Source: Trypanosoma brucei (Eukaryota). From it: DNA of 64,000 bases. The stretch's first letter is position 1. Every line of letters starts with the position of its first letter. Of this stretch, positions 40,801 to 56,474 are shown in pieces. The position numbers and the translations under genes were made by a program. A model generated the notes under the pieces. It saw only the letters and a list, made by a program, of their open reading frames with translations. It had not been told where the DNA came from and did not search any database. Location: assembly GCA_000002445.1 (NCBI GenBank), contig CM000208.1, positions 192,001-256,000 of the forward strand. The letters run 5' to 3'.

Positions 40801-41858
40801 TTGACGTACCAGAGCAAGAGCAGTCCGTGGATGGTGTTCTGGCACTTATTGCTCGCGCCTACGCGAACAAAGCCAGTGGTGCCAGCATGCAAGTGGCGTT
40901 TGCCGATAGGGAAGAGGTGTCAACCGCAATTCAGTCGCTCAATACAGCAGTGCAACTGCTCCAACAGTCTTTACCAACAGTAAGGCGCAGAGCATGCTCC
41001 GATGTAAGAAGTAGAGGACGCGCTGCTGTCGATAACTCACCGCGTAGCTCCCCAACTGGTGTAAGGAAAGTGCCTTCGAGGGGGCGGCCCATGACATTCA
41101 GTGGTAGGGGTGCAACAACATCGCCACCAGTGCGGGCACCACAGATATCTGGAAGGAGGTTGTTGGGGCAAGCAACGCCAATGAGGTCAGCACCAACCAA
41201 CACACCGAAGAGACACAAAACACCACAGCAAGAAAAGGTCAATACCGTAGGTCCTTGTCATCCATTGATATCGAGTGCCACGCGCGTCGTGCAACTTGTG
41301 CAGCAACTGACCGGAACTCCCGTACAGCCGAAGGTAAAGCCTACCAAAACGGCAACCAAACCACTTTCGAATACAGCAGGGGAGGAACTTGCTGAAGAGT
41401 TTGTACGTTGGAGCCGTGAACAAACAATTTCTCTTGCGCTGATTGTTAAGGACTACCTCCACGACGCACTGAGGGCAATGAGTCAAGTAGCGTTAGCTCA
41501 TGATGCAGTAACCACAACATATCAAGGACTACCGGTGGATCACACGCTCAATCTGAACACGGCAAAGAGCTGTGTAACACACGCACTGAAAAGCATCGTG
41601 CAGACCATATCTTCCCTACTCTCACATCGGGAAATAAGTGAGATTGAGGGAAAATTCGGAAAAGATTACCTTTCTATGACTCCTGCGCCACGTGGCAAGA
41701 CAACCAAACAAGAGGATCCGCGCCGTCAGTGTTCTGCTCCCGCCTTGGGTCTCGCCCCGCGTCCCGCTAATATAACGTTGTCATCTGGTGATCATTGCCG
41801 AAGTGTGTCACGGGATGTTGACGGGCTTTCGGTGCGCCCGCAACGAGAGGCCCTCTAA
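37803..41858 (+). CDS. Large coiled-coil protein (about 1351 aa) with a basic Ser/Pro/Arg-rich C-terminal region
   Basis: Continuous ORF with trypanosome-like codon usage. Heptad-rich segments run through most of its length. Around 40980-41350 there is a basic, S/T/P/R-rich low-complexity stretch (SRGRAAVDNSPRSSPTGVRKVPSRGRP...). The first ATG is at 37803; the ORF-track start is TTG. Confidence 0.6.
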   Translation: MSEPREVGYRHILRSASATSKVNAKNRSPTVTKSPSTPTDSRGVSAARMRSFSGSSVARANPRIPQKDDSSREEVRALRLLLREREEQVELLHALLSEKQLLLNHNKAAEERLRQCDEQLGTLAAVLGLEMESQEKDNLPHTTRQAKGSELGTVKKMPSVRCILDRVQQLVYDKTHLESELDVKLQELEWAQTELEMLRGGTLSQKVSLKNDAGKCGSLAQELESQLRVNAELERTLADLKEKYIMSERILETLEKDHHQVSQVLHGKEKEVLELQRKERSVAAESSKRREYEIYHMQWKEPNNLITTHHRCHFRGDSWVGLLREKPQAMQAALLKDISLELRAPYGFITIATMESVSELVVFDVIIRHPVSLSEDDVELRLIGCSFDEMSLLLKQAENPKEGHDLVLHQLKLLQGTIVRKEEEIAALTKQLRTTKLSLEERQRQYDEESKLVHMALDETEETVKVTYSELKMRELREEELKLQLQQCSETILSRDQRIMELTAQLRELNSTVAEESEENARIRDATCSNGPGDKHDGRSAEGRKKCVENESDGLCDTLVKIPSVKMHVVEASWKGLDPLASTEAVMTLDSRAQSIVRTILIGEMATVAHVLPLKVLSLQCTCCSLRAEVQVHISSQVEDADRSTEGLDKFRPRTTIAFLEEWFNMRELIESRGRRVQSLADELTSLNLSVAAFKESGKKNEEVEKAATTGTPSCAGETSQGDEEKREEKRLCESLDQQLRLERTQVRTLQAEKRAKELALQRANDKLNEVTAAFEALQSNFAGRDHRPTRDEDANACRLADVQAKRRHGRNQKDNNMKGVCDAELAGGNESLRAERGDVWSALADAYEEYDTLYERYENAMKQLQDLESSLREKLLLTKRSHVYEKQVEELTQQKEALIAEQEKQREKEALLRETVTSHQRDIDRLQKELDRKTEWAEEVMRRLVEEEDECSRLEGAVRSLKQHSTAEVATKEKVVSNDLKTKDIQRVLYTFCTTTLGIDVPEQEQSVDGVLALIARAYANKASGASMQVAFADREEVSTAIQSLNTAVQLLQQSLPTVRRRACSDVRSRGRAAVDNSPRSSPTGVRKVPSRGRPMTFSGRGATTSPPVRAPQISGRRLLGQATPMRSAPTNTPKRHKTPQQEKVNTVGPCHPLISSATRVVQLVQQLTGTPVQPKVKPTKTATKPLSNTAGEELAEEFVRWSREQTISLALIVKDYLHDALRAMSQVALAHDAVTTTYQGLPVDHTLNLNTAKSCVTHALKSIVQTISSLLSHREISEIEGKFGKDYLSMTPAPRGKTTKQEDPRRQCSAPALGLAPRPANITLSSGDHCRSVSRDVDGLSVRPQREAL

Positions 41859-42989: not shown

Positions 42990-44357
42990 ATGCACGACGG
43001 AGATGGCAATATTGAACTCATCATTGGCCCCATGTTCGCTGGTAAAACAACAGAACTGATGAGACGTGTCCAGCGACACAAACACGCCCAAAGATCATGT
43101 TATATCATCAACTATTCACGAAACAGTTACCAAAATCAGCGACTGTCAACTCACGACCAGCTTTCACTGACTGCCAATGTGTCCATCGCAAAACTTAGTG
43201 AAGTGTGTGATGAATGGCGTGACTACGACGTCATTGCTGTTGACAATGGCCAATTCTTCCCTGATGTTGTGGGTTTCTGTGCACGCGCAGCCAATGAGGG
43301 GAAGACTGTCATTGTGTCAGCACTCGATGTAGACTGCCGAGAAACTCCTTTTGATGAGGTTTGCCGTCTTGTTCCCCGTGCAGAATCAGTGTTGAAACTC
43401 AGTGCCGTATGCATGGAATGTCATGAGCACGATGCTTTCTTAACGTATCGCACCATCGAGAGCAACGAGCGTGAACTATATGGTGGAGCCGACATGTACT
43501 TGGCTGTGTGCAGGTGGTGTTACAAACAACTTACCATGAGCCACGTTGATGCGCAGAAGACATCTGCTTCCACAGCTGCAGTTGTGCCAAATGGTGCACA
43601 CGGTCGCATTGAACTCATCATTGGCCCCATGTTCGCTGGTAAAACAACAGAACTGATGAGACGTGTCCAGCGACACAAGCACGCTCAAAGATCATGTTAT
43701 ATCATCAAGTACACTGGGGACACACGCTACAGTGAAGGTGCTATAACTTCTCACGACCAGCGTGCACTGACTGCCAATGTGTCGGTCTCTAATTTACATG
43801 ACGTGGGTGATGAGTGGCGTAAATACGATGTGATCGCGGTGGATGAGGGCCAATTTTTTCCTGGTGTGGCCGCGTTCTGTTCCAAGGCTGCCGATTCGGG
43901 GAAGGTTGTAATTGTGTCAGCACTTGATGCCGATTACCTACAAGAGCCATTTGAAGAAATTTGCCTTCTTGTTTCCCGTGCTGATTCTGTTGTGAAACTT
44001 AGTGCCGTGTGTATGGAGTGTCACAATCGCAAAGCATCTTTTACATATCGTACTGTGAAGAGTGATGAGCGCAAACTTGTCGGTGGCAGTGATATGTACA
44101 TGTCAGTTTGCAGATCATGTTACGAAACTAAAAGGAATATGGTGCAAACTGAAAAGTACATTTACAGTTGTGTTGGGATCAATGAAGGGAGTTACTCGGA
44201 ATGTTCCCCCGGGCCAAGCGAGCGCAGTTCAGCAGGAACCTCCGGCGTCCAAACTTCCGTCAAGGTGGATGAGCAGAACTGCACTGAACCGAACACAGAA
44301 GCTAAAAAAATGCCTCTGAAGAGAAAAAGAAATCAAATGGCCGTTGATACTACTTAG
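42990..44357 (+). CDS. TK: Thymidine kinase, tandem two-domain (pseudo-dimer) form
   Basis: Two consecutive TK1-type domains. Each has the P-loop IIGPMFAGKTTEL, a VD(N/E)GQFF motif and the Zn-ribbon lasso CMECH...VCRxCY. Domain 1 is about 42990-43560 and domain 2 about 43590-44170. A ~60-aa C-terminal tail follows. Confidence 0.9.
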   Translation: MHDGDGNIELIIGPMFAGKTTELMRRVQRHKHAQRSCYIINYSRNSYQNQRLSTHDQLSLTANVSIAKLSEVCDEWRDYDVIAVDNGQFFPDVVGFCARAANEGKTVIVSALDVDCRETPFDEVCRLVPRAESVLKLSAVCMECHEHDAFLTYRTIESNERELYGGADMYLAVCRWCYKQLTMSHVDAQKTSASTAAVVPNGAHGRIELIIGPMFAGKTTELMRRVQRHKHAQRSCYIIKYTGDTRYSEGAITSHDQRALTANVSVSNLHDVGDEWRKYDVIAVDEGQFFPGVAAFCSKAADSGKVVIVSALDADYLQEPFEEICLLVSRADSVVKLSAVCMECHNRKASFTYRTVKSDERKLVGGSDMYMSVCRSCYETKRNMVQTEKYIYSCVGINEGSYSECSPGPSERSSAGTSGVQTSVKVDEQNCTEPNTEAKKMPLKRKRNQMAVDTT

Positions 44358-45443
44358 TGCCAGGTGTACTATTGCGCAACGTATTGTGCCATTTTTCTGA
44401 TCTTCAAATTATTAGAGTTGTTGGTAAAACAGCGTTGCTGACCACTTAAAAAAAAAAAAGTATACATAAATAGTGGTTCTTTCCACTGTTTCCCGGGATC
44501 CTCCTCTATTTTTGAAAAAAAAAAATTTGGTTCGTTACTTTTCCCGAGGTAGACGTGTAAAATGTTTTAATGCGGCGCATACACAAGGAGAAAAGATGCT
44601 TATGTGGTCACGTTTACTGTGCTGTGCTCGCCAAGGCTTGTAGTACGCAAGGCACAATTTTCGAAACGCGGTATGTTTTCCTTATGTGCACCATCTTAAG
44701 TTGCTGCTGCCGCTGTTTCCTTAAACTTTCAGGGCATGCATCCGCCACCATTAAGCATGTTTAAACCATTGCCTGTTAGTTGGGTTTTTTTTTCCACATA
44801 ACAAACATTAACCTTATCGTAGCCGTACACCTTTGGGGATGCGGCGAGCAACAGCCATCGACGTGGCAGAAGCTGTCGCCGCTTAGAAGAACATTCACAC
44901 GAACCTGAAGGAAAACATAATACGCGTTTAGGTTTCAACTCGTGAGACGCAGTTCGCCACAGGGAAACGCTCGTACGAGCATAGAATTGCTTTTATAGAA
45001 ATCGGGAAATTAGGAGGGGAGAATTAAGAGATTAGACGTGTTTGAGGGACTATGGTGTTTTCTTGTTAAAGTGGTGAAACGCTTGTCAAGGTGGACCTTG
45101 TGTTTCCTTACCTCTGTTTGTTATTGACTTTTTTTTCCTTTTTCGTCGACCCAACTGCCTGCTAACCTGTGATCTTTGGTCCACCGCCTGTTTGTGCACT
45201 ATAGATTACCGTTGTGGTATTCCTCTCTGTGCTTCGGACTGCTTCCTCTCTTTAACCTGTTTCTTTTTTCCCTTTATAATAACGACGACAATAGTCCTTT
45301 AAGTAGAGGTCCAACCACTGCCATACTGGCACCAGCGGTTACGGTGTAGGTGTGCAATTAATTTTTCGCATAGAAGCTTCGCTACGGCAGGCAATTCCCT
45401 CCGTGCCAACTGTTATTAAAGAGTAGAATCACAGGAGGAAGAA

Positions 45444-48400
45444 ATGTTGCACAAACCATGTGTACAGGTGGTTATGCGGTTCCGCCCAAACCCTGGGGTT
45501 GCTTCTCCTTTTTACTCCACAGATGACACGGGTGCACCATGGCTTACGTACGATGAGCGTACCGTTCGTGTCGTGGAACGCGATCCGCCGATGGACCGGA
45601 AACGCGTGGAACCCAATGGGGGCCCTTGCGGTGACAGCAATGACCCCCCAGTTTCAAAAGCGCTCGTTCCAGCGCCTGTAACGAGCTACACGTTTGATGC
45701 AGTGCTCTCCGATACATCAACCCAGCGCGACGTGCACAAATGTGTTGGGGAACCTGTGATCGGTAATGTGCTGAAGGGTTACAATGCTACAATATTTTCC
45801 TATGGGCAAACAGGGAGTGGGAAGACGTATACGATGTTGGGCCCCTACGGGGGGTTGGCTGATGCTTTCTTCGAAGATAGTCCGTTCTATGGCGAGCGAG
45901 GGCTCGTACCGCGAGTAGTGGAAGAGTTGTTTAATCGTTTGAATACCATGAAATCGGAGGAGTACACGTGGCGGGTCAAGACACAAATGTTTGAGATATA
46001 CAGGGAAAATATTGTCGACTTGCTTATCGAAGGAGACCAACAACCTCAGACAGAGTATCGCATAAGGGAAGGCAAAAACAGTCAAGGTAGTTTTTGTATG
46101 TACGTTGACTCTCTAAAGGAGGTTGAATGCCGTACCGCCGCTGATTTCATGGATATACTGCAGAGGGGTGTGGCGAGCAGGCACACACGTGAAACGGGAA
46201 CAAATGACCGCTCTAGTAGAAGTCATTGCCTGCTCTGCTTATTTGTGGAGCTGAAGCACAATGAAGATTACAGTATGTGGACAGAAAGCAGGCTTAACTT
46301 CGTCGATCTTGCAGGCAGTGAACGAGTTGCGACCTCTCAAGCGGAGGGAGAGACCTTAAAAGAAACTCAATACATTAATCTCTCTCTTTCACTTCTAGGA
46401 AATGTTATCCACCGCCTTGCCGGCGGTAACACTGGACACATTCCCTACCGCGATACGAAACTGACACGAGTGTTGAAGGATTCACTCGGTGGTAATTCAC
46501 TGACCACTCTGCTATGTCACGGCACAACCGAAGCTGCAACAAAGAGTCAAACAATTAATACACTTCGATTTGCTCAAAAGGCACTTCGAATAAAAACACG
46601 TGCTGTCGTCAACAAACCATCGAAAACAACGATCAAACAACAACAGCAGGAGTTCTACAAGGAACACACAAAACAGTTGGAAAAACAAATAAGAGTTTTG
46701 CAAGAAATTATTAGAAGCCGGGAAAACACGGAAGGTGAAAATTCTATGTGCGCAAAATGTGAGAGCATGAGTGCTACGATCGCGTCATTAACAAAAGAAA
46801 TTGAAAGACTTCAGAAAGAACTTATAGCAAGAGAAGAACAGCTACAGCAAACGCAGGAAACAGGAGACTACTACAAAAAGAACTGCGAAACCCTCGAAAA
46901 CGAACTAGCAAAACTGACAGAGGAGCAAGAAGCAAACGACGCAAGGCACATCGAAGCATACACAATTCTTGAAGAAGAAAGTGAGAACCTCAGGGCTGAA
47001 ATTGAAGCGCTACAAAAGCAATTAGCAGAGAAGCCACACAAGGACGCATCCAACTCCGAAGCTCTTTCCAACAAAAATAATACGCGGAAAAATAATTATA
47101 ATGATTATAAAAACCGCGCTACTATGACAGATCGTCGAACACACTCAAATTGTTGCACAATGACTGACCCTGTTACAATTGTTATGCCTGATGTCATGGA
47201 GGATATGCAACGCCGTCTAACAAAGGAACTTATCAACTGTGGTACGATGACAGATATCCGTTCACACTCAAATTGTTGCACAATGACTGACCCTGTTGCA
47301 ATTGTTATGCCTGATGTTATGGAGGATATGCAACGCCGTCTAACAAAGGAACTTATCAATTGTGGAACAATGACGGATATCCGTTCACACTCAAATTGTT
47401 GCACAATGACTGACCCTGTTGCAATTGTCATGCCTGATGTTATGGAGGATATGCAACGCCGTCTAACAAAGGAACTTATCAATTGTGGTACGATGACAGA
47501 TGGCACCATCTCCACTAACCGCGCTACTATGACAGATTGTCGAACACACTCAAATTGTTGCACAATGACTGACCCTGTTGCAATTGTCATGCCTGATGTT
47601 ATGGAGGATATGCAACGCCGTCTAACAAAGGAACTTATCAACTGTGGCACAATGACGGATATCCGTTCACACTCAAATTGTTGCACAATGACTGACCCTG
47701 TTGCAATTGTTATGCCTGATGTTATGGAGGATATGCAACGCCGTCTAACAAAGGAACTTATCAACTGTGGCACAATGACGGATATCCGTTCACACTCAAA
47801 TTGTTGCACAATGACTGACCCTGTTGCAATTGTCATGCCTGATGTTATGGAGGATATGCAACGCCGTCTAACAAAGGAACTTATCAACTGTGGTACGATG
47901 ACAGATGGCACCATCTCCACTAACCGCGCTACTATGACAGATCGTCGAACACACTCAAATTGTTGCACAATGACTGACCCTGTTGCAATTGTTATGCCTG
48001 ATGTTATGGAGGATATGCAACGCCGTCTAACAAAGGAACTTATCAACTGTGGCACAATGACGGATATCCGTTCACACTCAAATTGTTGCACAATGACTGA
48101 TCCTGTTGCAATTGTCATGCCTGATGTCATGGAGGATATGCAACGCCGTCTAACAAAGGAACTTATCAATTGTGGTACGATGACAGATGGCACCGTCTCC
48201 ACTAACTGCGCTACTATGACAGATCTTCGTTCACACTCAAATTGTTGCACAATGACTGACCCTGTTGCAATTGTCATGCCTGATGTCATGGAGGATATGC
48301 AACGCCGTCTAACAAAGGAACTTATCAACTGTGGCACAATGACAGATGGCACCATCTCCACTAACCGCGCTACTATGACAGATCTTCGTTCACACTCAAA

Positions 48401-51400
48401 TTGTTGCACAATGACTGACCCTGTTGCAATTGTCATGCCTGATGTTATGGAGGATATGCAACGCCGTCTAACAAAGGAACTTATCAATTGTGGTACGATG
48501 ACAGATGGCACCGTCTCCACTAACTGCGCTACTATGACAGATCTTCGTTCACACTCAAATTGTTGCACAATGACTGACCCTGTTGCAATTGTTATGCCTG
48601 ATGTTATGGAGGATATGCAACGCCGTCTAACAAAGGAACTTATCAATTGTGGCACAATGACAGATCTTCGTTCACACTCAAATTGTTGCACAATGACTGA
48701 CCCTGTTGCAATTGTTATGCCTGATGTTATGGAGGATATGCAACGCCGTCTAACAAAGGAACTTATCAATTGTGGTACGATGACAGATGGCACCGTCTCC
48801 ACTAACTGCGCTACGATGACGGATATCCGTTCACACTCAAATTGTTGCACAATGACTGACCCTGTTGCAATTGTCATGCCTGATGTTATGGAGGATATGC
48901 AACGCCGTCTAACAAAGGAACTTATCAATTGTGGTACGATGACAGATGGCACCGTCTCCACTAACTGCGCTACTATGACAGAGGTTTGCCGTCAATCTAA
49001 TTCGCTTGATCGGCGTGTGTCTTGTGTATCGGGTACCGCTGAAAATGTGTCGTTGAGTGGGGAAACGTTTTGTAGGAATACATCTGTGAATACCCGTGAG
49101 TGTTCATATATTGCACGAAACACCATATTTGCTTCGAGTGTTGTTTCTTCATTTGTCCCCGTAATTGGGGAAGGACAGTTTGAGTGGTGGTGTTTGGACG
49201 ATGTGTATGCTCATGCTCTTTTGTTTTCTTACTGCAATCCACGCGATGTGGGTATCAATATTGGCTTGTTCGATGACTGTGATGATAAGGTGCTTTTGCA
49301 ATCTCTTGGAGTTGTTCATAGAACACTTGGCTCCATTCGTGCTGATTATGATGGCAGCGTCGTCTCGGTTATTCGTAGGTTTTTGGTTCAGCAACGCGGT
49401 GCCCTTGCAGGAGACGGCGCTCTTGAAGGTTGTGTGCCGTGCGAGGCTCTATTCGAGGTTCTTATATCTGCCAAAAATGCACTCTTGGTGGAGCCAATGG
49501 TCAGCGACTCCTCTACTGTGAAGGGGGAAGATAGGGTTTGTCACGGTGATGGAGAAGGTGCACTTGACAGCTGCGTATATGCTCACTTGCAAGTGGCGAT
49601 GACCGCCGTCTTCAGCATTGCACGTGAGCGCGGTGGATATTTGTCGGATATTTTCGCATCTGTGAAGGTTCAGAAAGCACTCGAAGCAATGCGTCAGTTC
49701 TTCACTTCCAGCAATTTATTTTCGAGTGGAAGTAGCAGCGTTTCTAGTACCTCCGAGGCCAACGGAGATAGTAGCAGCTTCCTCGAAGACATGCTGAGGG
49801 AAACAGAGGTCCCGCGTTTTGTACTAGGAGGTGCATTGCAACGGGCAGCCGCGCTGCTCAAGGATGATGTGGTGACCAAATTGCAGAGGCGGAGATTGTG
49901 TGGCGGACTCTCGTTGGAGGAGGCCCTTCTTGCGTGTTATTTGGCTGAAGAAAGAATCACCGCCCTCACTGAAATCGAAAATTTGAGAGAAGAAATGGTA
50001 CAGCCTGTTACACGCGAAGCGCTGGATTTAATTGACGGTGCGGTGAGGGCTTTTCTCAAGAGTGAAGAGTCCGAGGATTTCTCCGCTGAAGCCACAAACC
50101 ACATGAAAAGCAGCTCCTTCACTACCGCACTGGCATTTCTCTTCACGTACGTCGCTGCTCAAACAGCGACTGAAACCGTCGGGCTTCCTCAAGATAGCAC
50201 AGAACATGTTAGAGATGCGCTAAATGTAGTTGCGCAGACACTACTAAGGCGTTCAGTGTCACAAACTTCAAGATTTGATGTAGCACAGAGTAATACAGCG
50301 ATAGACCCAGAAAGCATGCAACAATCGTTGAGGATTATAATGGATTATGCGGAAAGTCAAGGTTACTACCCAGTCACATGCGATACGTCAGAAGCAGGCA
50401 GCCGGTCCAATCATCACTGCCAGTACTCCCAGCAAACCCGTAGAAAGGACACGCCCGACATCGACGTCACGAAAAGGGAGGCACTTATGGAAAAAATGGA
50501 TTCGCCTCGTACCACTCCAAGAAGTTCACCGCACCCTCGGTTATCCTCGCCACAAGAGCAACGACCTCAAACGAGCGTGGTTGTAGTATCGCAACCAAAT
50601 GTAACAAGCCACCACATCAACAACCTCGTTCACAGAGGAAGGATGACTAACCCTGTTGCAATTGTTATGCCTGATGTCATGGAGGATATGCAACGCCGTC
50701 TAACAAAGGAACTTATCAATTGTGGTACGATGACAGATGGCACCATCTCCACTAACCGTGCTACTATGACAGATCTTCGTTCACACTCAAATTGTTGCAC
50801 AATGACTGACCCTGTTGCGATTGTTATGCCTGATGTCATGGAGGATATGCAACGCCGTCTAACAAAGGAACTTATCAATTGTGGAACAATGACGGATATC
50901 CGTTCACACTCAAATTGTTGCACAATGACTGACCCTGTTGCAATTGTCATGCCTGATGTTATGGAGGATATGCAACGCCGTCTAACAAAGGAACTTATCA
51001 ATTGTGGTACGATGACAGATGGCACCATCTCCACTAACCGTGCTACTATGACAGATCTTCGTTCACACTCAAATTGTTGCACAATGACTGACCCTGTTGC
51101 AATTGTTATGCCTGATGTTATGGAGGATATGCAACGCCGTCTAACAAAGGAACTTATCAATTGTGGAACAATGACGGATATCCGTTCACACTCAAATTGT
51201 TGCACAATGACTGACCCTGTTGCAATTGTTATGCCTGATGTCATGGAGGATATGCAACGCCGTCTAACAAAGGAACTTATCAATTGTGGAACAATGACGG
51301 ATATCCGTTCACACTCAAATTGTTGCACAATGACTGACCCTGTTGCAATTGTCATGCCTGATGTTATGGAGGATATGCAACGCCGTCTAACAAAGGAACT

Positions 51401-54113
51401 TATCAATTGTGGAACAATGACGGATATCCGTTCACACTCAAATTGTTGCACAATGACTGACCCTGTTGCAATTGTTATGCCTGATGTCATGGAGGATATG
51501 CAACGCCGTCTAACAAAGGAACTTATCAATTGTGGAACAATGACGGATATCCGTTCACACTCAAATTGTTGCACAATGACTGACCCTGTTGCAATTGTTA
51601 TGCCTGATGTCATGGAGGATATGCAACGCCGTCTAACAAAGGAACTTATCAATTGTGGAACAATGACGGATATCCGTTCACACTCAAATTGTTGCACAAT
51701 GACTGACCCTGTTGCAATTGTTATGCCTGATGTTATGGAGGATGTGCAACGGCGGCCATCAAACAGACTTGATGCTTCCACCTCATTAAAGGTGAGCAAA
51801 AACAATGGCGACGTGGCTGTGTACGAAGCTGTTCGCTTTGGTGACGAAAAAGTAGTGGTGGATAGTTGTTCTGTGGCGTCAGTGAGTGATAGTTTCCCGC
51901 GGGATTTGTCAAGTGAGGTGGGTAAACTTCAGTTAAGGGTACTAGATCTCGGGAAAGAGGTTTACATGCTTCAGAAAGAACTTATGGCAAGAGAAGAACA
52001 GCTACAGAAAACGCAGGAAAGGGCAGACTACTACAAAAAGAACTGCGAAACCCTCGAAAACGAACTAGCAAAACTGACAGAGGAGCAAGAAAGAAACGAC
52101 GCAAGGCGTACCGAAGCATACACCATTCTTGAAGAAGAAAGTGAGAACCTCAGGGCTGAAATTGAAGCGCTACAAAAGCAATTAGCAGAGAAGCCACACA
52201 AGGACGCATCCAACTCCGAAGCTCTTTCCAACAAAAATAATACGCGGAAAACGGATAGCGACCACGCTGTTGACGGGAAGGAAAATTTGGGTCTTCATCA
52301 TGTGTCCTCTGTGAGATCACTAGTTCACTTGAGGGAAAATAAAGCAAGGGAACATCTTCGAAGTCGTTCGTTGTCCAATGGCAGGGAGCCCCCTGGTGGT
52401 GTTCTACCTACCGAGCTGAGGACATGGCCGCAGACGGCGCAGCAAAGTGCCCCCGCTGCTTGCACCCATGAAAAAGGTGTGGAACGAAAACTTTCAGAGG
52501 AACTCGATGAGAGCGACGTCGTGAACCACCTCACCGCTCAGGCAACTCCTGAAATGCTGAATCTGAAACCCGAACTATTTGTAAAAAACCCTGCTTCGTT
52601 CGATCGTTTGGTGTCATATCTTACGCGACTCGTAGAAAGGGCTGAAAGGGAACCCGGAGCGCTGAGTTGTGAGGAAAGACACCTTTCTGAGGTATTGAAG
52701 GTGTTCTCCACTTTTTACTGTGGTTATCGTTCCATTGAAAGTGGTACCGGCACTTGTCCCATTGTTGATGGGAATCTGCGTTCACGCGGTGGGAGTTCAC
52801 ATTCACTGCGTCCTAGGGCAAAAGGAATGTGGTCTCCAGAATCCTTGCGGGTTTCCCCTGATGTTGGAAGGAACGTTGACGCTGTGAAGGAAGACCAAAA
52901 TGGTAAGCATCTCGGCCCAGTGCCTTCCGCAAGTACGACATTTCGAACCGGGCGTTCTGAGAGGTGTACTTCCTCCGTTCGTGGCGTGGCGTTGGTGGGT
53001 GGGCTTTTGGCGTCGAGGAGACGCTCGTCAACTGCTCCTTCACCGACAGAGGGGCCGCGGGTCCCTCTGCAGAGGGAAGAAATAGAAGACCTGGAGGGAA
53101 TGTCAGAGTTGGTGTCTTCCATCGAGGACATGCAGTCGCAGTTAGCCTACTTCAATTTTAGCAATGAGCCAGAGCTGAGGGAGTCCATCAAGCAACTGCA
53201 ACAGCACCTCGAGGAACTCAGAGCAGTCCTGGAGAGCCAAATGTCAACGACAAAAATGTCACGATCACCCTCCTATATATCTAGTTTCAGGGGAAGCTGC
53301 TTCTCACAGGGTAACCAACAGGGTCAAGGTGTGCAAGAGGGGAAGCCACCACTAAAAGCAGAAAGCAACGGATGTCAACCTGCGACCGACAGCGCGTGTG
53401 ATACAAATTATTCAAACGGTGGCCAGACAGGCTATTTAGCTGTATGTAATGCTGTAAACACTTGCTGTGGAGGGAGAGGTGCGTTCCATCGTGGTTCGAA
53501 TAGATGCTCCCACTGGGTACCACTGAGAATGCACAGGGCAAATCACGATGAGAACGTCGGGTTGGCGATGAATGAGCCTGGTGGCTCTATTCCTCAAGGA
53601 CGGTCAAATGCTTTTGACGACGGCTCGCAACGCAAGTGTATGGCGCCGAATCGACGCAACCAGAGTGCAGTGATGAGGCGGTTGCTGGACTCTATGCGAT
53701 TTGACCTTGACTCGTATGTGTACACGGCTGCCGAACAGAATGCCGCTAGCGCTGCTTTGCTAGAGGAATCGTCTTCTCTCAAGGAAAGAGAAGCAGATAT
53801 GTGGTTACGTCTCAACCAAACAGAGTTCTGCGAGATGGCAAGGATAGAAATGAGGCTGAAAAGGGATGACTTACGGGAGCTTCAGCATGAAATCCACCGC
53901 ATGCACTTGTTGCACGATAAAGAACTCGTAGAGCGGAAACGGAGGTTGTTGATTTATTCCTATAGAAAATTGCTGGATTTTGCAAAGCGAATGTCCGATA
54001 TTCTTAAGGCACGCGAGTTCTGTACGGGCACGCTGGAAAGCCAGCGGCTGCTGCTATTAGACGAAACGTCAGATTTCACAAAAGATGTAGAAAAGTACAT
54101 TGAGGTTCTGTAG
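45444..54113 (+). CDS. Kinesin-like motor protein (2889 aa) with two internal arrays of Cys-rich 41/53-aa tandem repeats
   Basis: N-terminal motor domain with SYGQTGSGKTYTM (P-loop), NxxSSRSH (switch I) and DLAGSE (switch II). Neck coiled coil from about 46600 to 47090. Repeat arrays at about 47110-48990 and 50640-51745. Long unique C-terminal region. One ORF is uninterrupted from ATG 45444 to TAG 54113. Confidence 0.8.
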   Translation: MLHKPCVQVVMRFRPNPGVASPFYSTDDTGAPWLTYDERTVRVVERDPPMDRKRVEPNGGPCGDSNDPPVSKALVPAPVTSYTFDAVLSDTSTQRDVHKCVGEPVIGNVLKGYNATIFSYGQTGSGKTYTMLGPYGGLADAFFEDSPFYGERGLVPRVVEELFNRLNTMKSEEYTWRVKTQMFEIYRENIVDLLIEGDQQPQTEYRIREGKNSQGSFCMYVDSLKEVECRTAADFMDILQRGVASRHTRETGTNDRSSRSHCLLCLFVELKHNEDYSMWTESRLNFVDLAGSERVATSQAEGETLKETQYINLSLSLLGNVIHRLAGGNTGHIPYRDTKLTRVLKDSLGGNSLTTLLCHGTTEAATKSQTINTLRFAQKALRIKTRAVVNKPSKTTIKQQQQEFYKEHTKQLEKQIRVLQEIIRSRENTEGENSMCAKCESMSATIASLTKEIERLQKELIAREEQLQQTQETGDYYKKNCETLENELAKLTEEQEANDARHIEAYTILEEESENLRAEIEALQKQLAEKPHKDASNSEALSNKNNTRKNNYNDYKNRATMTDRRTHSNCCTMTDPVTIVMPDVMEDMQRRLTKELINCGTMTDIRSHSNCCTMTDPVAIVMPDVMEDMQRRLTKELINCGTMTDIRSHSNCCTMTDPVAIVMPDVMEDMQRRLTKELINCGTMTDGTISTNRATMTDCRTHSNCCTMTDPVAIVMPDVMEDMQRRLTKELINCGTMTDIRSHSNCCTMTDPVAIVMPDVMEDMQRRLTKELINCGTMTDIRSHSNCCTMTDPVAIVMPDVMEDMQRRLTKELINCGTMTDGTISTNRATMTDRRTHSNCCTMTDPVAIVMPDVMEDMQRRLTKELINCGTMTDIRSHSNCCTMTDPVAIVMPDVMEDMQRRLTKELINCGTMTDGTVSTNCATMTDLRSHSNCCTMTDPVAIVMPDVMEDMQRRLTKELINCGTMTDGTISTNRATMTDLRSHSNCCTMTDPVAIVMPDVMEDMQRRLTKELINCGTMTDGTVSTNCATMTDLRSHSNCCTMTDPVAIVMPDVMEDMQRRLTKELINCGTMTDLRSHSNCCTMTDPVAIVMPDVMEDMQRRLTKELINCGTMTDGTVSTNCATMTDIRSHSNCCTMTDPVAIVMPDVMEDMQRRLTKELINCGTMTDGTVSTNCATMTEVCRQSNSLDRRVSCVSGTAENVSLSGETFCRNTSVNTRECSYIARNTIFASSVVSSFVPVIGEGQFEWWCLDDVYAHALLFSYCNPRDVGINIGLFDDCDDKVLLQSLGVVHRTLGSIRADYDGSVVSVIRRFLVQQRGALAGDGALEGCVPCEALFEVLISAKNALLVEPMVSDSSTVKGEDRVCHGDGEGALDSCVYAHLQVAMTAVFSIARERGGYLSDIFASVKVQKALEAMRQFFTSSNLFSSGSSSVSSTSEANGDSSSFLEDMLRETEVPRFVLGGALQRAAALLKDDVVTKLQRRRLCGGLSLEEALLACYLAEERITALTEIENLREEMVQPVTREALDLIDGAVRAFLKSEESEDFSAEATNHMKSSSFTTALAFLFTYVAAQTATETVGLPQDSTEHVRDALNVVAQTLLRRSVSQTSRFDVAQSNTAIDPESMQQSLRIIMDYAESQGYYPVTCDTSEAGSRSNHHCQYSQQTRRKDTPDIDVTKREALMEKMDSPRTTPRSSPHPRLSSPQEQRPQTSVVVVSQPNVTSHHINNLVHRGRMTNPVAIVMPDVMEDMQRRLTKELINCGTMTDGTISTNRATMTDLRSHSNCCTMTDPVAIVMPDVMEDMQRRLTKELINCGTMTDIRSHSNCCTMTDPVAIVMPDVMEDMQRRLTKELINCGTMTDGTISTNRATMTDLRSHSNCCTMTDPVAIVMPDVMEDMQRRLTKELINCGTMTDIRSHSNCCTMTDPVAIVMPDVMEDMQRRLTKELINCGTMTDIRSHSNCCTMTDPVAIVMPDVMEDMQRRLTKELINCGTMTDIRSHSNCCTMTDPVAIVMPDVMEDMQRRLTKELINCGTMTDIRSHSNCCTMTDPVAIVMPDVMEDMQRRLTKELINCGTMTDIRSHSNCCTMTDPVAIVMPDVMEDVQRRPSNRLDASTSLKVSKNNGDVAVYEAVRFGDEKVVVDSCSVASVSDSFPRDLSSEVGKLQLRVLDLGKEVYMLQKELMAREEQLQKTQERADYYKKNCETLENELAKLTEEQERNDARRTEAYTILEEESENLRAEIEALQKQLAEKPHKDASNSEALSNKNNTRKTDSDHAVDGKENLGLHHVSSVRSLVHLRENKAREHLRSRSLSNGREPPGGVLPTELRTWPQTAQQSAPAACTHEKGVERKLSEELDESDVVNHLTAQATPEMLNLKPELFVKNPASFDRLVSYLTRLVERAEREPGALSCEERHLSEVLKVFSTFYCGYRSIESGTGTCPIVDGNLRSRGGSSHSLRPRAKGMWSPESLRVSPDVGRNVDAVKEDQNGKHLGPVPSASTTFRTGRSERCTSSVRGVALVGGLLASRRRSSTAPSPTEGPRVPLQREEIEDLEGMSELVSSIEDMQSQLAYFNFSNEPELRESIKQLQQHLEELRAVLESQMSTTKMSRSPSYISSFRGSCFSQGNQQGQGVQEGKPPLKAESNGCQPATDSACDTNYSNGGQTGYLAVCNAVNTCCGGRGAFHRGSNRCSHWVPLRMHRANHDENVGLAMNEPGGSIPQGRSNAFDDGSQRKCMAPNRRNQSAVMRRLLDSMRFDLDSYVYTAAEQNAASAALLEESSSLKEREADMWLRLNQTEFCEMARIEMRLKRDDLRELQHEIHRMHLLHDKELVERKRRLLIYSYRKLLDFAKRMSDILKAREFCTGTLESQRLLLLDETSDFTKDVEKYIEVL
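46790..47095 (+). repeat. About 300-nt segment duplicated at 51965-52260 (coiled-coil module flanking the kinesin repeat arrays)
   Basis: KEIERLQKELIAREEQLQQTQETGDYYKKNCETLENELAKLTEEQEANDARHIEAYTILEEESENLRAEIEALQKQLAEKPHKDASNSEALSNKNNTRK recurs near-identically at 51965-52260. Confidence 0.85.
47110..48990 (+). repeat. In-frame tandem repeat array 1 inside the kinesin gene (13 units; 123-nt and 159-nt variants)
   Basis: The unit encodes MTDIRSHSNCCTMTDPVAIVMPDVMEDMQRRLTKELINCGT (41 aa). The long variant inserts MTDGT(I/V)STN(R/C)AT (12 aa). Units are more than 95% identical at the nucleotide level. Confidence 0.9.
50640..51745 (+). repeat. In-frame tandem repeat array 2 inside the kinesin gene (about 9 units of the same 123/159-nt family)
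   Basis: Same repeat family as 47110-48990. It is separated from array 1 by a ~1.65-kb unique segment. Confidence 0.9.
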
Positions 54114-55600
54114 CAGAAAAGGATGCACTTGTCGTAATATGACGTGAGGAACCAGCAGTGGGGCTTCTACCTTCGTGTCAGCGTCTCTTTCGGTTGCGGT
54201 TCGCGACAAAACAAAGCAGAATATTCATCATCAGTGTTTTTATTTGTGCATAATCCAACGATGTTGGATTAACTAACTAACGAGTGGCTTTGCTCTCTCC
54301 TTTTGTTACTGAAGGCATTGTACTTGCGATTCTCAGAATATCAACCGGAAGTGAGAGGTTGAATTTGTCCTTGCATAGAGAAAAAGCAAAAAAAAATTGT
54401 TGGTTTACATAGACACCATTAGACGCACGGTAAATTAGAAAGTAAGCAGTGAGAGCTCTGAAGAAAGATATTGATATCGATATATTAACGGATAGAAGTA
54501 ATGATAACTAAGTGCTATCCCATCGGCGACGAGTGAGGGGAATCGGGGGTGATAATGACAAACATTCTTTGCGCGATGGCGGTGTTGGGTTGGTATCTAA
54601 AGTGCAAAGAGGTGACAAAGATTTTTGTGCACATGTATTTATATATCTACACATACATAACAAGCCATCACCAATCCGAAACAACAAACAAGGGAAGGGG
54701 GAGAAGTGGTGGAATAGATGAGGAAATATGAACCCATCTTGCCAACGGCTAAATGCGTATAAATAAATGTATAGACACGTGAAAGGAAGTAAGGAATGAG
54801 GTCAGGGATGGTACCCTTTTTTGGCAATCGGTGTCCTGGTTCTCTTTATTAGTATCTCCTCTTTCAGTGTGACTTAAGTTGTTGAACGCGCCGCCTACAC
54901 CACGATTTTACGTACTTTCCATGTTTTAGGTTTATCCTTTCTCACCCTTCCGGTGTTGTGGTGTAGTTGAGTTGGATAAAGGATCGGTAGCGACAAAAAT
55001 ATCAACGAAAGAAGCATAAACAAAACAGTAAATATACCACTGTTTCTAATATAATTATTACCACTACTCTCTTTGGCTCACTTTATATTAATTACATTGC
55101 GTCGCCCTCTTTTCTGGATTCTTCCATGAGTTGCGTCGCCTGGGGATACAAATAAACAGTTTCCCTCCACCCACTTTTTTTTCGAGTGAGGGGGAGAAGC
55201 AGTGAAGGGAAGGAGGGAGTATTTGCAGAGGCGCAGCTGCGTGCGATTGCCGTTCTTTTTGTTAGAGATGTGGGTAACATGTTCGCTCTTTGACTTCTTT
55301 GTTATGGTTGTTTGGTGTTTTTTTTCTACCTATATTGTTGAAGAAATCACTCCACTGCCCTTCTGGGGTCCGATGGTGTGTTTACATACTGTCTTGGGGT
55401 ACAGGCTGTGAACTACCACGGAGCACAGTCCACCGTATAGACGGTGGCGGTGTTGGTGTTTTGGCGATACCTCGGGTCTACTTACCCGCAGTAAGGAACG
55501 CACACCCATTGATCCATTTATTTATTCTGCTCCTGCCTTCTTTTTCGTACGTTTCCAACACAGAAACGTTGCAATATACAGGGAAGTGGTAATAGTGGCA

Positions 55601-56116: not shown

Positions 56117-56474
56117 CTATCCTTTTTTCTTCCTATTTCAAGTTGGATGTGCGTTCGGCACAGCGCGAGTAACATCCGTCAAATTTAGTCGGAGCAACCT
56201 CTCTCACCTTGTCTTTGTTGTGGTGGCGGTTGTGTTTGTGTGCCGCTTTTGCGAGCATTTCCACTTATTCCTTAACTCGTGAAAATGTTGTGTCTGGCAT
56301 CAAGCTGCTCCTCCTCGTGCCACTTCCCCCCTGTAGAGGTAATACACATTTCACCCCGCACAGCCACACAAACACAAAATATACATTAGCAGAAAAGGGG
56401 GACTCCAAGTGTTTTGTATATTTGCCTATATACACACATTGAACAAATACGCTGTTTTACATGAAAATTGGATT

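What the first reader, a model, noticed from the sequence alone, without database searches (positions are those of the whole stretch)
47110..51745. Kinesin with about 22 copies of a Cys-rich 41/53-aa tandem repeat in two arrays
The kinesin ORF (45444-54113) has an N-terminal motor domain but carries two arrays of a highly conserved repeat, with 13 copies and about 9 copies. The repeat reads ...IRSHSNCCTMTDPVAIVMPDVMEDMQRRLTKELINCGTMTD... Each unit contains an H-S-N-C-C cluster, a further Cys, and an acidic Met-rich segment (MPDVMEDMQ). Copies are more than 95% identical at the DNA level. That implies very recent expansion, concerted evolution, or selection on the nucleotide sequence. Such His/Cys/Met density repeated about 22 times is unusual for a kinesin tail. 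It could form a metal-binding or disulfide-dependent scaffold. By analogy with trypanosomatid repetitive cytoskeletal antigens, it could also be a repetitive cytoskeleton-associated or immunodominant region. I do not recognise the repeat as a described motif.
Basis: seen in the sequence. Interest (0 to 1): 0.7.

Follow-up and report, generated by a model that had tools for sequence, protein, structure and literature searches.

The report
Repeat arrays in flagella-connector kinesin FCP4/TbKin15

Summary
Observation confirmed. ORF 45444-54113 (2889 aa) has 13 + 9 copies of a 41/53-aa unit at 47109-48983 and 50643-51755. Internal copies are about 96% identical in DNA.

The window is T. brucei TREU927 chromosome 10. 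The ORF is exactly Tb927.10.890, the published flagella-connector kinesin FCP4/TbKin15; the published knockout primers abut it. So the gene is known. No paper I could read mentions its repeats, but Varga 2017 was not readable.

New here:
- Each unit is made of 2-3 sub-modules that share only [I/S/T]-N-[C/R]-[G/C/A]-T-M-T-D. There are 52 in the protein, spaced 12 or 29 aa apart.
- The protein sequence is under purifying selection: 8 synonymous polymorphic sites against 2 variable codons, both in a linker.
- Copy number differs in T. b. gambiense (22 or 26, plus 6).
- The T. theileri orthologue has a homologous 32-aa repeat in the same place. It keeps KEL...TMTD but has no Cys.
- More distant orthologues carry a single CGTMTD-like site.

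TMT-D is a validated anchor of LC8/DYNLL motifs (myosin Va DDKNTMTD, Drosophila ASCIZ QT3), and the flanks score like validated binders. Best reading (about 0.4): a highly multivalent LC8 ladder that zips and stiffens the kinesin tail. Metal or disulfide binding is not supported.

The parts
45444..54113 (+). Whole gene Tb927.10.890 = FCP4/TbKin15, 2889 aa.
   Evidence: The sequence is identical to XP_822347.1 / Q38CF1. Published knockout primers hit 44686-44705, 45422-45443, 54114-54134 and 54438-54452, which abut the ORF exactly (primers from PMC6771564).
45678..46589 (+). Kinesin motor domain (aa 79-382 by Pfam; the motor fold starts near aa 5).
   Evidence: PF00225 E=1.2e-91. GQTGSGKT, SSRSH and DLAGSE are present in the translation.
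46809..47091 (+). Coiled-coil-like segment CC-A (aa 446-551), immediately upstream of array 1. It is one of two duplicated copies.
   Evidence: Matches 51969-52251 at 96% over 283 nt, and at 85% over 106 aa.
47109..48983 (+). Array 1: 13 units (6 of 41 aa, 7 of 53 aa), carrying 34 of the 52 ...N-x-x-T-M-T-[DE] octamers.
48984..50642 (+). Non-repeat central domain between the arrays (aa 1181-1733).
   Evidence: No Pfam match. 25% identity over 325 aa to the T. theileri orthologue, E=3e-12. The AF2 model is unusable at pLDDT 36.
50643..51755 (+). Array 2: 9 units (first degenerate at its start, last truncated), carrying 18 octamers.
51969..52251 (+). Coiled-coil-like segment CC-A' (aa about 2166-2271), downstream of array 2. 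It is the duplicate of CC-A.
   Evidence: In gambiense, CC-A' carries the CC-A residues at positions where TREU927 differs, which indicates gene conversion.
53628..54110 (+). Conserved C-terminal about 160 aa (ends ...FCTGTLESQRLLLLD...). This is the part shared with all orthologues.
   Evidence: Query positions 1040-1200 match T. congolense, T. vivax, T. theileri, Bodo saltans-like and four unnamed assemblies.
47105..48961 (-). Antisense 618-aa ORF. It is not a gene; it is a stop-free by-product of the repeat. The same holds for 50630-51805 (-).
   Evidence: Every other ORF of 250 aa or more in the window lies on the + strand.

Best explanation
Shown:
- The arrays are part of the tail of FCP4/TbKin15. 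[quoted passage not shown]
- Each 41/53-aa unit consists of two or three 12-aa sub-modules plus one 21-residue spacer. The sub-modules end in an invariant octamer [I/S/T]-N-[C/R]-[G/C/A]-T-M-T-D. The spacer is PVAIVMPDVMEDMQRRLTKEL.
- That gives 52 octamers per chain in TREU927, with anchor-to-anchor spacing of 12 or 29 residues.
- The amino-acid sequence is under purifying selection. The two arrays exchange sequence. Copy number varies between subspecies.
- The KEL...TMTD core is conserved in a homologous array of the T. theileri orthologue.

Inferred, and my committed mechanism:
- The octamers are recognition motifs for the dimeric hub protein LC8 (dynein light chain DYNLL). LC8 binds 8-residue strands anchored by T-Q-T, or more weakly by T-M-T.
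- Two parallel tails of a kinesin dimer are held in register by the duplicated coiled-coil segments at the outer ends of the arrays.
- The tails would be cross-bridged by up to about 50 LC8 dimers into a stiff 'ladder'.
- Individually weak TMT sites would be made effective by avidity.
- The ladder would set the length and rigidity of the tether between the axoneme tip and the junction. It may correspond to the thin intraflagellar filaments seen by tomography.
- Copy number then tunes tether length.
For: Identity and function:
- fix the gene.

The motif is the conserved core:
- In 179 sub-modules from three Trypanozoon gene models, N(-4), M(0) and T(+1) are invariant. Position +2 is D or E. Position -1 is T or I in 178 of 179. 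Position -2 is always G, C or A.
- Positions outside -5..+2 differ between the three sub-module types. The shared block therefore has the length and register of an LC8 motif.
- T. theileri has a 32-aa repeat, AQRAQQEKELVHANTMTDLAATELQEQEDFIA, after its first coiled coil and before the homologous central domain. It aligns with the T. brucei unit only in QR..KEL[IV]xxxTMTD[IL] (z=9.2).
- More distant orthologues without arrays have one VDCGTMTD, RECGTMTQ or REYGVMTH site upstream of the conserved C-terminal helix. One has TSVGVQTE, which is Q-anchored.

Compatibility with LC8:
- A TMT anchor is experimentally validated in myosin Va DDKNTMTD (PMC6607443) and in Drosophila ASCIZ QT3 (PMC5963919). 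The QT3 Kd is 36 uM (PMC10046861).
- I built a PSSM from the 79 validated binders in Table S4. Flank-only scores for the T. brucei octamers are 3.2-4.4 bits. The leave-one-out binder median is 3.6 and the non-binder median is -1.3. The scores fall in the top 1-2% of random octamers.
- INCGTMTD resembles the validated Ana2 site ICAGTQTD.
- Octamers scoring 9 or more number 53 in the protein (52 in the arrays, plus SDTSTQRD in the motor domain). The expectation by chance is 0.5.
- Linkers between octamers are 4 and 21 residues, inside the 3-41 range seen in ASCIZ.
- LC8 exists and acts as a hub in T. brucei, as a subunit of the transcription factor CITFA.

Consistent cell biology:
- Tomography shows thin intraflagellar filaments between the connector plates and the axoneme.
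- mAb62 stains the connector in an FCP4-dependent way. It also stains the basal body, flagellum and nucleus in an FCP4-independent way, and the authors could not decide whether FCP4 is the antigen or only recruits it. That is the pattern expected if the antigen were a recruited hub protein.

Selection:
- There are 8 synonymous polymorphic sites against 2 variable codons, and both variable codons lie in the 4-residue linker.
Against: - No binding data exist, and no paper I could search links LC8 to the flagella connector.
- TMT is a rare and weak anchor; only two cases have been validated.
- With Met at position 0, the full PSSM scores (9.6-11.3) lie between the non-binder mean (8.6) and the binder mean (14.0). 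The flank scores overlap the top quarter of non-binders. Even LC8Pred, the published predictor built on these tables, is only about 78% accurate.
- Disorder of the arrays is not established. AF2 on a single sequence gave pLDDT 49 with short strands.
- The hydrophobic PVAIVMPDVM spacer could fold or bind something else.
- Alignments of the single-copy sites in distant orthologues run through poorly conserved sequence. The Bodo site CGVMAV has Ala at +1 and scores poorly.
- Fifty LC8 dimers per kinesin dimer is far beyond any known partner.
- I could not read Varga et al. 2017, which may contain domain-dissection data that bear on this.
Confidence: 0.4

Rival explanations
1. The arrays are a passive spacer or elastic linker with no specific ligand. 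They would be a tolerated, recombination-prone expansion whose only role is to lengthen the tether. Through epitope multiplicity, they could also make this scarce protein immunodominant, as in other trypanosome repetitive cytoskeletal antigens.
For: - Copy number differs freely: 13 + 9 in TREU927 against 22 or 26, plus 6, in gambiense.
- The T. theileri unit has a different length and mostly different sequence.
- More distant orthologues reach about 3000-5100 aa without arrays.
- The authors themselves invoke a protein spanning hundreds of nanometres.
- Two independent monoclonals against cytoskeletons depend on FCP4 for the connector signal.
Against: - A pure spacer does not explain why 36 consecutive residues are invariant while synonymous sites vary.
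- It does not explain why three otherwise different sub-modules keep the same octamer.
- It does not explain why KEL...TMTD survives between T. brucei and T. theileri.
- The two readings are not exclusive: an LC8 ladder is also a spacer.
Confidence: 0.25
2. The TMTD octamer is a docking or modification site for some other factor. Candidates are another flagella-connector protein, or a kinase acting on the Thr residues (T-x-x-D fits an acidophilic kinase site). The arrays would then be a multivalent platform, but not for LC8.
For: - The same conservation evidence as for LC8 applies.
- The connector is known to carry phospho-epitopes recognised by the MPM2 antibody.
- The Thr-rich composition is 13-16% T.
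Against: - No candidate reader domain is known to me for N-x-x-T-M-T-D.
- MPM2 needs pS/pT-Pro (my own knowledge), which the motif lacks.
- The 8-residue extent and the preferences at -5, -2, -1, +1 and +2 coincide with LC8 rules position by position. That would be a coincidence under this reading.
Confidence: 0.17
3. The Cys/His/Met-rich repeats bind metal ions, form disulfide cross-links, or are S-acylated on the CC pairs so as to fasten the tail to the flagellar membrane junction.
For: - Cys is 6.5-7.1% and Met 11.6-12.1% of the array residues.
- A Cys at -3 also occurs in several distant orthologues' single sites: DCG, ECG.
- The protein ends at a membrane junction.
Against: - The homologous T. 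theileri repeat has no Cys.
- His and the second Cys of CC are specific to one sub-module type, whereas N, M, T and D are the invariant residues.
- No metal-binding or zinc-finger profile matches, and no PDB relative exists.
- There is no CxxC/HxxH ligand geometry in the unit; the sequence shows this directly.
- The flagellar matrix is reducing (my own knowledge).
Confidence: 0.08
4. The arrays, or their size, are an assembly artefact.
For: - The gambiense scaffold is broken by a 100-N gap inside this gene, and two overlapping versions of array 1 carry 26 and 22 copies.
- The T. theileri array is interrupted by 490 N.
- The T. congolense and T. vivax models are fragments.
Against: - The TREU927 window has no N.
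- Most units carry distinguishable synonymous haplotypes.
- The two-array architecture recurs in an independent assembly.
- Experimentalists tagged, deleted and described a protein of nearly 3000 aa at this locus.
Confidence: 0.03

Closest known systems
LC8-binding domains of ASCIZ/ATMIN (7 sites in Drosophila, 11 or more in human) and the Nup159 DID region (5 sites)
   Same: These are clusters of 8-residue T-Q-T-type motifs in one chain, separated by short linkers (3-41 residues in ASCIZ). They bind LC8 dimers that bridge two chains into a ladder. Nup159 gives a rigid stacked rod. One ASCIZ site uses a TMT anchor.
   Different: Here every site is TMT-anchored, and the sites are near-identical rather than diverse. 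There are 52 rather than 5-11. They sit in the tail of a kinesin between duplicated coiled-coil segments. Binding is untested.
Myosin Va exon-B LC8/DYNLL2 site DDKNTMTD
   Same: It is a motor-protein tail with the identical T-M-T-D anchor and +2 residue, located next to coiled coil. Binding there is thought to be helped by the adjacent coiled-coil dimer.
   Different: Myosin Va has a single site with D-K at -4/-3, whereas here those positions are N-C or N-R. It is a myosin, not a kinesin.
Drosophila Ana2 LC8 site ICAGTQTD
   Same: It resembles T. brucei sub-module B, INCGTMTD: I at -5, small residues at -3/-2, and G-T-x-T-D.
   Different: It has Gln rather than Met at position 0, there are two sites only, and it is a centriole protein.
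32-aa repeat of the Trypanosoma theileri orthologue (TM35_000123060 and the adjacent motor gene model)
   Same: The genes are syntenic, next to thymidine kinase. The array sits in the same place, after the first coiled coil and before the homologous central domain. The shared block is QR..KEL[IV]xxxTMTD[IL].
   Different: It has one TMTD per 32 aa instead of 2-3 per 41/53 aa. It has no Cys, no Met-rich acidic segment and no second array. Its copy number is unknown because of a 490-N gap.
Trypanosome repetitive cytoskeletal proteins (for example FAZ1 and the microtubule-associated repetitive proteins; named from my own knowledge)
   Same: These are large cytoskeleton-bound proteins with long arrays of near-identical amino-acid repeats and variable copy number. 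Antibodies raised against cytoskeletons often hit them.
   Different: No sequence relationship was found. Here the repeat is attached to a motor domain and has a recognisable short linear motif as its core.

Membership tests
Kinesin superfamily | Motor domain profile scores above the curated threshold. | tested here: met
   PF00225: 307.6 bits against a cut-off of 29.3, aa 79-382.
Kinesin superfamily | Nucleotide-binding motifs: P-loop GQTGSGKT, switch I SSRSH, switch II DLAGSE. | tested here: met
   All three are present in the translation: FSYGQTGSGKTYTM, NDRSSRSHCLL, VDLAGSERV.
FCP4/TbKin15 (Tb927.10.890) | Same gene as the one studied under that name. | tested here: met
   The sequence is identical to XP_822347.1 of TREU927. 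The four published knockout primers for Tb927.10.890 match uniquely and abut the start and stop codons (primers).
FCP4/TbKin15 (Tb927.10.890) | Membership of the kinesin-15 family by phylogeny. | not tested
   Taken from PMC9826329. My motor-domain search returned mostly kinesin-2-like and KIF12-like best hits, and I built no tree.
Multivalent LC8/DYNLL-binding region | 8-residue motif with a [T/V/I]-[Q, rarely M]-[T/V] anchor and D/E/P at +2. | tested here: met
   52 octamers ...N-x-x-T-M-T-[DE], invariant across 179 instances. The TMT anchor is validated in two proteins.
Multivalent LC8/DYNLL-binding region | Flanking positions compatible with validated binders and unlike non-binders. | tested here: inconclusive
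   Flank-only PSSM scores are 3.2-4.4 bits, equal to the binder median and in the top 1-2% of random octamers. They overlap the upper quartile of non-binders, and the full score is lowered by Met at position 0.
Multivalent LC8/DYNLL-binding region | Motifs lie in an intrinsically disordered segment. | tested here: inconclusive
   The AF2 single-sequence model has pLDDT 49, with no confident fold and no proof of disorder.
Multivalent LC8/DYNLL-binding region | Inter-motif linkers long enough for neighbouring LC8 dimers. | tested here: met
   Linkers are 4 and 21 residues (anchor spacing 12 and 29). The range in ASCIZ is 3-41.
Multivalent LC8/DYNLL-binding region | Physical binding of LC8 with one dimer per pair of sites. 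| not testable with these tools
No published data were found.
Cys/His metal-binding repeats (zinc-finger-like or metallothionein-like) | Match to a known metal-binding domain, or a regular ligand pattern. | tested here: not met
   No Pfam family passes for the unit. There is no PDB relative. The whole-protein Pfam 'hits' have no significant stretch and are repeat-inflated.
Cys/His metal-binding repeats (zinc-finger-like or metallothionein-like) | Ligand residues conserved in homologous repeats. | tested here: not met
   The T. theileri homologous unit has no Cys. Within T. brucei, Cys and His are not among the residues shared by all sub-modules.
Trypanosome repetitive cytoskeletal antigens | Long array of near-identical amino-acid repeats in a cytoskeleton-bound protein. 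| tested here: met
   The arrays are confirmed. The protein is retained in detergent-extracted cytoskeletons according to PMC6771564.
Trypanosome repetitive cytoskeletal antigens | The repeat is the immunodominant epitope. | not testable with these tools
   mAb62 and mAb35C give FCP4-dependent connector signals, but the epitopes are unmapped and mAb62 fails on blots.

The most novel reading that the evidence does not exclude
FCP4/TbKin15 would be the most highly multivalent LC8 client known. About 50 TMT-anchored sites per chain would recruit tens of LC8 dimers and build the filamentous tether of the flagella connector or groove. The array would have arisen by amplifying a single ancestral LC8 site that orthologues as distant as the Bodo saltans lineage still carry as one copy. 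A corollary is that the unresolved antigen of mAb62 could be LC8 itself, concentrated at the connector by the arrays. [quoted passage not shown] A Mucoromycota Num1/Mcp5-type cortical dynein anchor carries 41-aa TMT[DE]PVxIV repeats, which hints that the same device evolved elsewhere.
Probability: 0.35. Interest if true: 0.8.

Novelty: new variant of a known kind. Interest (0 to 1): 0.5.

Why it matters
The flagella connector is a mobile junction that lets a trypanosome copy its cell shape from the old flagellum. FCP4/TbKin15 is one of the few components with a clear loss-of-function phenotype, yet two thirds of the protein has no assigned role.

Recognising that the arrays are 52 copies of one short linear motif turns 'a large repetitive tail' into a concrete hypothesis that can be tested cheaply. 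The tests are LC8 binding, anchor mutants and LC8 localisation in the existing knockout line.

If correct, the hypothesis would explain:
- how the tether is dimerised and stiffened;
- what the intraflagellar filaments are made of;
- why copy number can vary;
- possibly what mAb62 recognises.

It would also extend LC8 'ladder' scaffolds to kinesin tails and to a valency several-fold above any known client.

If wrong, the conserved KEL...TMTD core still marks the residues to mutate first.

Tried and rejected
- Pfam on the whole protein gave Ribosomal_L19e (3e-24), CheY-binding (5.5e-20) and PEPCK_N. All had zero significant stretches. They are sums of weak matches over 22 copies, so I rejected them.
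- AF2 on five units, single sequence: pLDDT 49 with short strands. Not interpretable, so I ran no fold search.
- AF2 on the central domain, single sequence: pLDDT 36, unusable.
- A first attempt to align the central domain with gambiense used wrong coordinates and was dropped.
- PDB sequence search with the unit found nothing.
- Word-indexed homology searches were of little use:
  - The tail query found only gambiense and one distant orthologue.
  - The motor query was flooded by general kinesins.
  - The central-domain query returned nothing, not even the query protein itself.
  - The exhaustive HMMER search supplied the orthologues instead.
- No DNA is on record for the T. congolense and T. 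vivax C-terminal fragments, so I could not see whether those species have arrays.
- Varga et al. 2017 and Kirkham et al. 2016 are not held.
- The flagellum-tip proximity proteome lists the kinesin but nothing useful on LC8.
- The phmmer hit to a WD40-like repeat protein (P0143, 20% identity) was judged a repeat-versus-repeat chance match.
- The PSSM hits LDAATNTD in P0010 and LSRSVQTI in T. theileri occur at about the chance rate and were not relied on.
Full report
**1. The observation**

The + strand ORF 45444-54113 encodes 2889 aa with an N-terminal kinesin motor (PF00225, aa 79-382, E=1e-91). The P-loop, switch I and switch II motifs are all present.

Tandem Repeats Finder reports overlapping arrays of period 123, 159, 282, 405 and 441 nt between 47112-48982 and 50643-51751, at 91-98% matches for the basic periods. 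Anchoring on the core MT[DN]PV[AT]IVMPDVMED gives 13 copies in array 1 and 9 in array 2.

Units are 41 aa, or 53 aa when a 12-aa insert GT[IV]STN[RC]ATMTD is present. The order is ssLssLsLLLsL in array 1 and LsLsssss in array 2.

Nineteen internal copies are on average 96.1% identical over 114 nt. Identity between the two arrays (96.0%) equals that within them (95.8% and 97.5%).

**2. What the gene is**

The protein is identical to XP_822347.1 / Q38CF1, 'kinesin, putative', of Trypanosoma brucei brucei TREU927, on a 4.05-Mb contig. The upstream gene is the tandem-domain thymidine kinase.

Abeywickrema et al. 2019 (PMC6771564) name Tb927.10.890 as FCP4/TbKin15 and give the primers used to delete it. 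Those four primers each match the window once, at 44686-44705, 45422-45443, 54114-54134 and 54438-54452. They end at the base before the ATG and start at the base after the stop codon. The ORF is therefore exactly the published gene.

According to that paper and Smithson et al. 2022 (PMC9826329):
- It is proposed to link the plus ends of the growing axoneme's microtubules to the membrane junction.

Neither paper contains the word 'repeat'. The founding paper (Varga et al. 2017) is not held, so I cannot exclude that the arrays are mentioned there.

**3. Anatomy of the repeat**

The unit is itself composite. 'TMTD' occurs 51 times in the protein, plus one TMTE. The octamers ending in it fall into three types:
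- SNCCTMTD, 21 copies.
- INCGTMTD, 21 copies.
- [TK]N[RC]ATMT[DE], 10 copies.

Anchor-to-anchor spacing is 12 residues (30 times) or 29 residues (20 times). A unit is therefore two or three 12-aa sub-modules followed by a 21-residue spacer, PVAIVMPDVMEDMQRRLTKEL.

I pooled 179 sub-modules from TREU927 and the two gambiense gene models:
- N at -4, M at 0 and T at +1 are invariant.
- Position +2 is D (176 times) or E (3 times).
- Position -1 is T (169), I (9) or A (1).
- Position -2 is always G, C or A. Position -3 is C or R. Position -5 is I, S, T or K.
- Positions -9 to -6 and +3, +4 differ between the types.

The only thing the sub-modules share is an 8-residue block.

**4. Selection and dynamics**

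Among the 19 internal copies there are 8 synonymous polymorphic sites. Only two codons vary at the protein level (I/L/R/C and S/T), and both lie in the 4-residue linker after a TMTD. Thirty-six consecutive residues are invariant. The conservation is therefore at the protein level, not merely a sign of recent expansion.

Synonymous haplotypes are shared between the arrays.

A 283-nt coiled-coil-like segment just upstream of array 1 (46809-47091) recurs at 96% identity just downstream of array 2 (51969-52251). In gambiense the downstream copy carries the upstream copy's residues at positions where TREU927 differs. The two halves are being homogenised by gene conversion. The protein layout is:
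- motor;
- CC-A;
- array 1;
- central domain;
- array 2;
- CC-A';
- C-terminal domain.

**5. Other strains and species**

In T. b. gambiense DAL972 the gene is split by a 100-N gap into two overlapping models. One has the motor plus 26 copies of array 1. The other has 22 copies of array 1, the central domain and 6 copies of array 2. The architecture is reproduced and the copy number is not.

An exhaustive HMMER search of 1.84 billion representatives with aa 1690-2889 matched the repeat only in Trypanozoon. It matched the last about 160 aa in orthologues from:
- T. congolense, a 526-aa fragment;
- T. vivax, a 153-aa fragment;
- T. theileri, a partial model;
- a Bodo saltans relative, about 950 aa;
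- four unnamed assemblies, 1256-5131 aa.

The T. theileri locus is syntenic: thymidine kinase, then the kinesin. After the first coiled coil it contains a 32-aa tandem repeat, AQRAQQEKELVHANTMTDLAATELQEQEDFIA, seen on both sides of a 490-N gap. This is followed by a central domain homologous to that of T. brucei (25% over 325 aa, E=3e-12).

The two species' units align only in QR..KEL[IV]xxxTMTD[IL] (z=9.2 against shuffles). The T. theileri unit has no cysteine.

Non-repetitive orthologues carry a single related site upstream of a conserved C-terminal helix:
- VDCGTMTD, RECGTMTQ and REYGVMTH in three of the unnamed assemblies;
- IDCGVMAV in the Bodo lineage;
- TSVGVQTE in one further lineage.

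The Bodo element DCGVMAV...EIDDMQSHMKQL resembles the T. brucei unit NCCTMTD...VMEDMQRRLTKEL. This suggests that the unit arose by amplifying an ancestral single-copy module. That step is inference from short alignments.

**6. What the octamer resembles**

LC8 (DYNLL) binds 8-residue strands numbered -5 to +2. The natural consensus is [D/S]-K-x-[T/V/I]-Q-[T/V]-[D/E]. The evolved optimum is VSRGTQTE. Positions -1 and +1 are buried, +2 prefers D, E or P, -4 prefers an H-bonding residue, and -2 should be small.

Met at position 0 is rare but validated. Myosin Va DDKNTMTD is a verified binder. Drosophila ASCIZ site QT3 is a TMT motif that raises the stoichiometry from 6 to 7 and has a Kd of 36 uM.

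From the 79 validated binders and 32 non-binders of Jespersen et al. 2019, Table S4, I built a log-odds matrix.
- On flanking positions only, the T. brucei octamers score 3.2-4.4 bits. The leave-one-out binder median is 3.6 and the non-binder median is -1.3. The scores are in the top 1-2% of random octamers.
- VDCGTMTD of one distant orthologue scores 7.0 on the flanks.
- Full scores (9.6-11.3) are pulled down by Met at position 0 and fall between the non-binder mean (8.6) and the binder mean (14.0).
- The protein has 53 octamers scoring 9 or more, against 0.5 expected.

INCGTMTD is close to the validated Ana2 site ICAGTQTD. Linkers of 4 and 21 residues lie within the 3-41 range of ASCIZ. LC8 is present in T. 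brucei and acts as a hub there, as a subunit of CITFA.

**7. Proposed mechanism**

The steps that are shown:
- The gene's identity.
- The motif structure of the unit.
- The constraint on the protein sequence.
- The conservation of the motif in orthologues.

The steps that are inferred:
- Two parallel tails of a kinesin dimer are kept in register by CC-A and CC-A'.
- They are cross-bridged by LC8 dimers at the TMTD octamers.
- Weak individual sites become effective through bivalency and multivalency, as argued for myosin Va and ASCIZ.
- The result is a beads-on-a-string rod of the Nup159 kind.
- This rod sets the length and stiffness of the tether between the axoneme tip and the junction.

Tomography shows thin intraflagellar filaments linking the connector plates to the axonemes. 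[quoted passage not shown]

One published oddity fits. mAb62 stains the connector only if FCP4 is present. [quoted passage not shown] A recruited hub protein would behave this way. This is a pointer, not evidence.

I put this mechanism at about 0.4.

**8. Rivals**

- A ligand-free spacer that is also immunodominant (0.25). It is compatible with variable copy number and with the antibodies. It does not explain the conserved octamer.
- A platform for another partner or a kinase (0.17). It cannot be excluded, but it has no candidate reader.
- Metal, disulfide or acylation chemistry on the cysteines (0.08). It is contradicted by the Cys-free T. theileri repeat, by the pattern of invariant residues and by the absence of any metal-binding profile.
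- An assembly artefact (0.03). It is contradicted by the independent assembly and by the experimental work on the locus, although copy numbers remain provisional.

**9. Novelty and verdict**

The gene and its cell biology are known. The arrays are visible in public records, but as far as I could read they are neither described nor explained.

The decomposition into 52 TMTD octamers, their conservation in T. theileri and in single copy elsewhere, and the LC8 reading appear to be new. They are directly testable with reagents that already exist.

The structure is best filed as a new variant of a known kind: a repetitive trypanosome cytoskeletal protein whose repeat core matches a known short linear motif class. 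Membership of the LC8-client class is not established, because binding was not testable here.

Interest is 0.5. It would be about 0.8 if the LC8 ladder is confirmed.

Noticed in passing
window 45444-54113; also gambiense models in L003: Pfam whole-protein E-values for Ribosomal_L19e (3e-24), CheY-binding (5.5e-20) and PEPCK_N are artefacts of summing weak matches over about 22 repeat copies, with no significant stretch. The same spurious families are stored as precomputed 'faint' hits on the gambiense proteins.
   Followed up: yes
window 47105-48961 (-) and 50630-51805 (-): Long antisense ORFs (618 and 391 aa) run through both arrays. They are stop-free by-products of the repeat and could be mis-called as genes.
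   Followed up: partly
window 46809-47091 and 51969-52251: A 283-nt coiled-coil-like segment is duplicated at 96% identity, upstream of array 1 and downstream of array 2. In gambiense the second copy carries the first copy's residues at positions where TREU927 differs, which indicates gene conversion between the two halves of the gene.
   Followed up: partly
window 25408-30567, 32264-36772, 37713-41858: Three consecutive large genes upstream all carry the FAZ1 conserved domain (PF23398), two of them with WD40 propellers. The first contains a 384-nt x 2 tandem repeat at 28405-29162. Together with the connector kinesin, this makes a cluster of flagellum-attachment-type genes.
   Followed up: no
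window 42990-44357: The thymidine kinase has two tandem TK domains in one polypeptide. This is a known T. brucei feature, and PDB entries exist for one domain.
   Followed up: no
window 56409-58865: A PIF1-like helicase gene lies downstream of the kinesin.
   Followed up: no
L001 (T. congolense IL3000 contig CAEQ01001499.1) 208-648 and 4453-4977: The contig reads: kinesin upstream region, a 349-aa motor fragment that stops prematurely, thymidine kinase, then the same kinesin upstream region again. This is either a local tandem duplication with a truncated motor copy or a misassembly. The annotated T. congolense and T. vivax orthologues are only C-terminal fragments.
   Followed up: partly
P0148 (Hesseltinella vesiculosa ORX51218.1) aa 1095-1300: A Mucoromycota Num1/Mcp5-family cortical dynein-anchor protein (Mcp5_PH domain) has five 41-aa repeats, SSTMTEPVLIVDD.... 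These resemble the T. brucei TMTDPVAIVMPD segment (library E=2e-4; z=5.3 for single units). It may be convergent use of a TMT-anchored motif in another motor-anchoring protein, or chance.
   Followed up: partly
L003 15900-15999 (T. b. gambiense DAL972 chromosome 10): A 100-N gap splits the gene, and the sequences on either side overlap: both contain array 1, with 26 and 22 copies. This looks like an unresolved join or two haplotypes placed in series.
   Followed up: partly
P0010 aa 626 and P0133 (about aa 640): Distant orthologues share a CPxC...T[LF]DAATNT element after the first coiled coil. LDAATNTD scores like a KIBRA-type (T-N-T) LC8 site. T. brucei has no counterpart.
   Followed up: no
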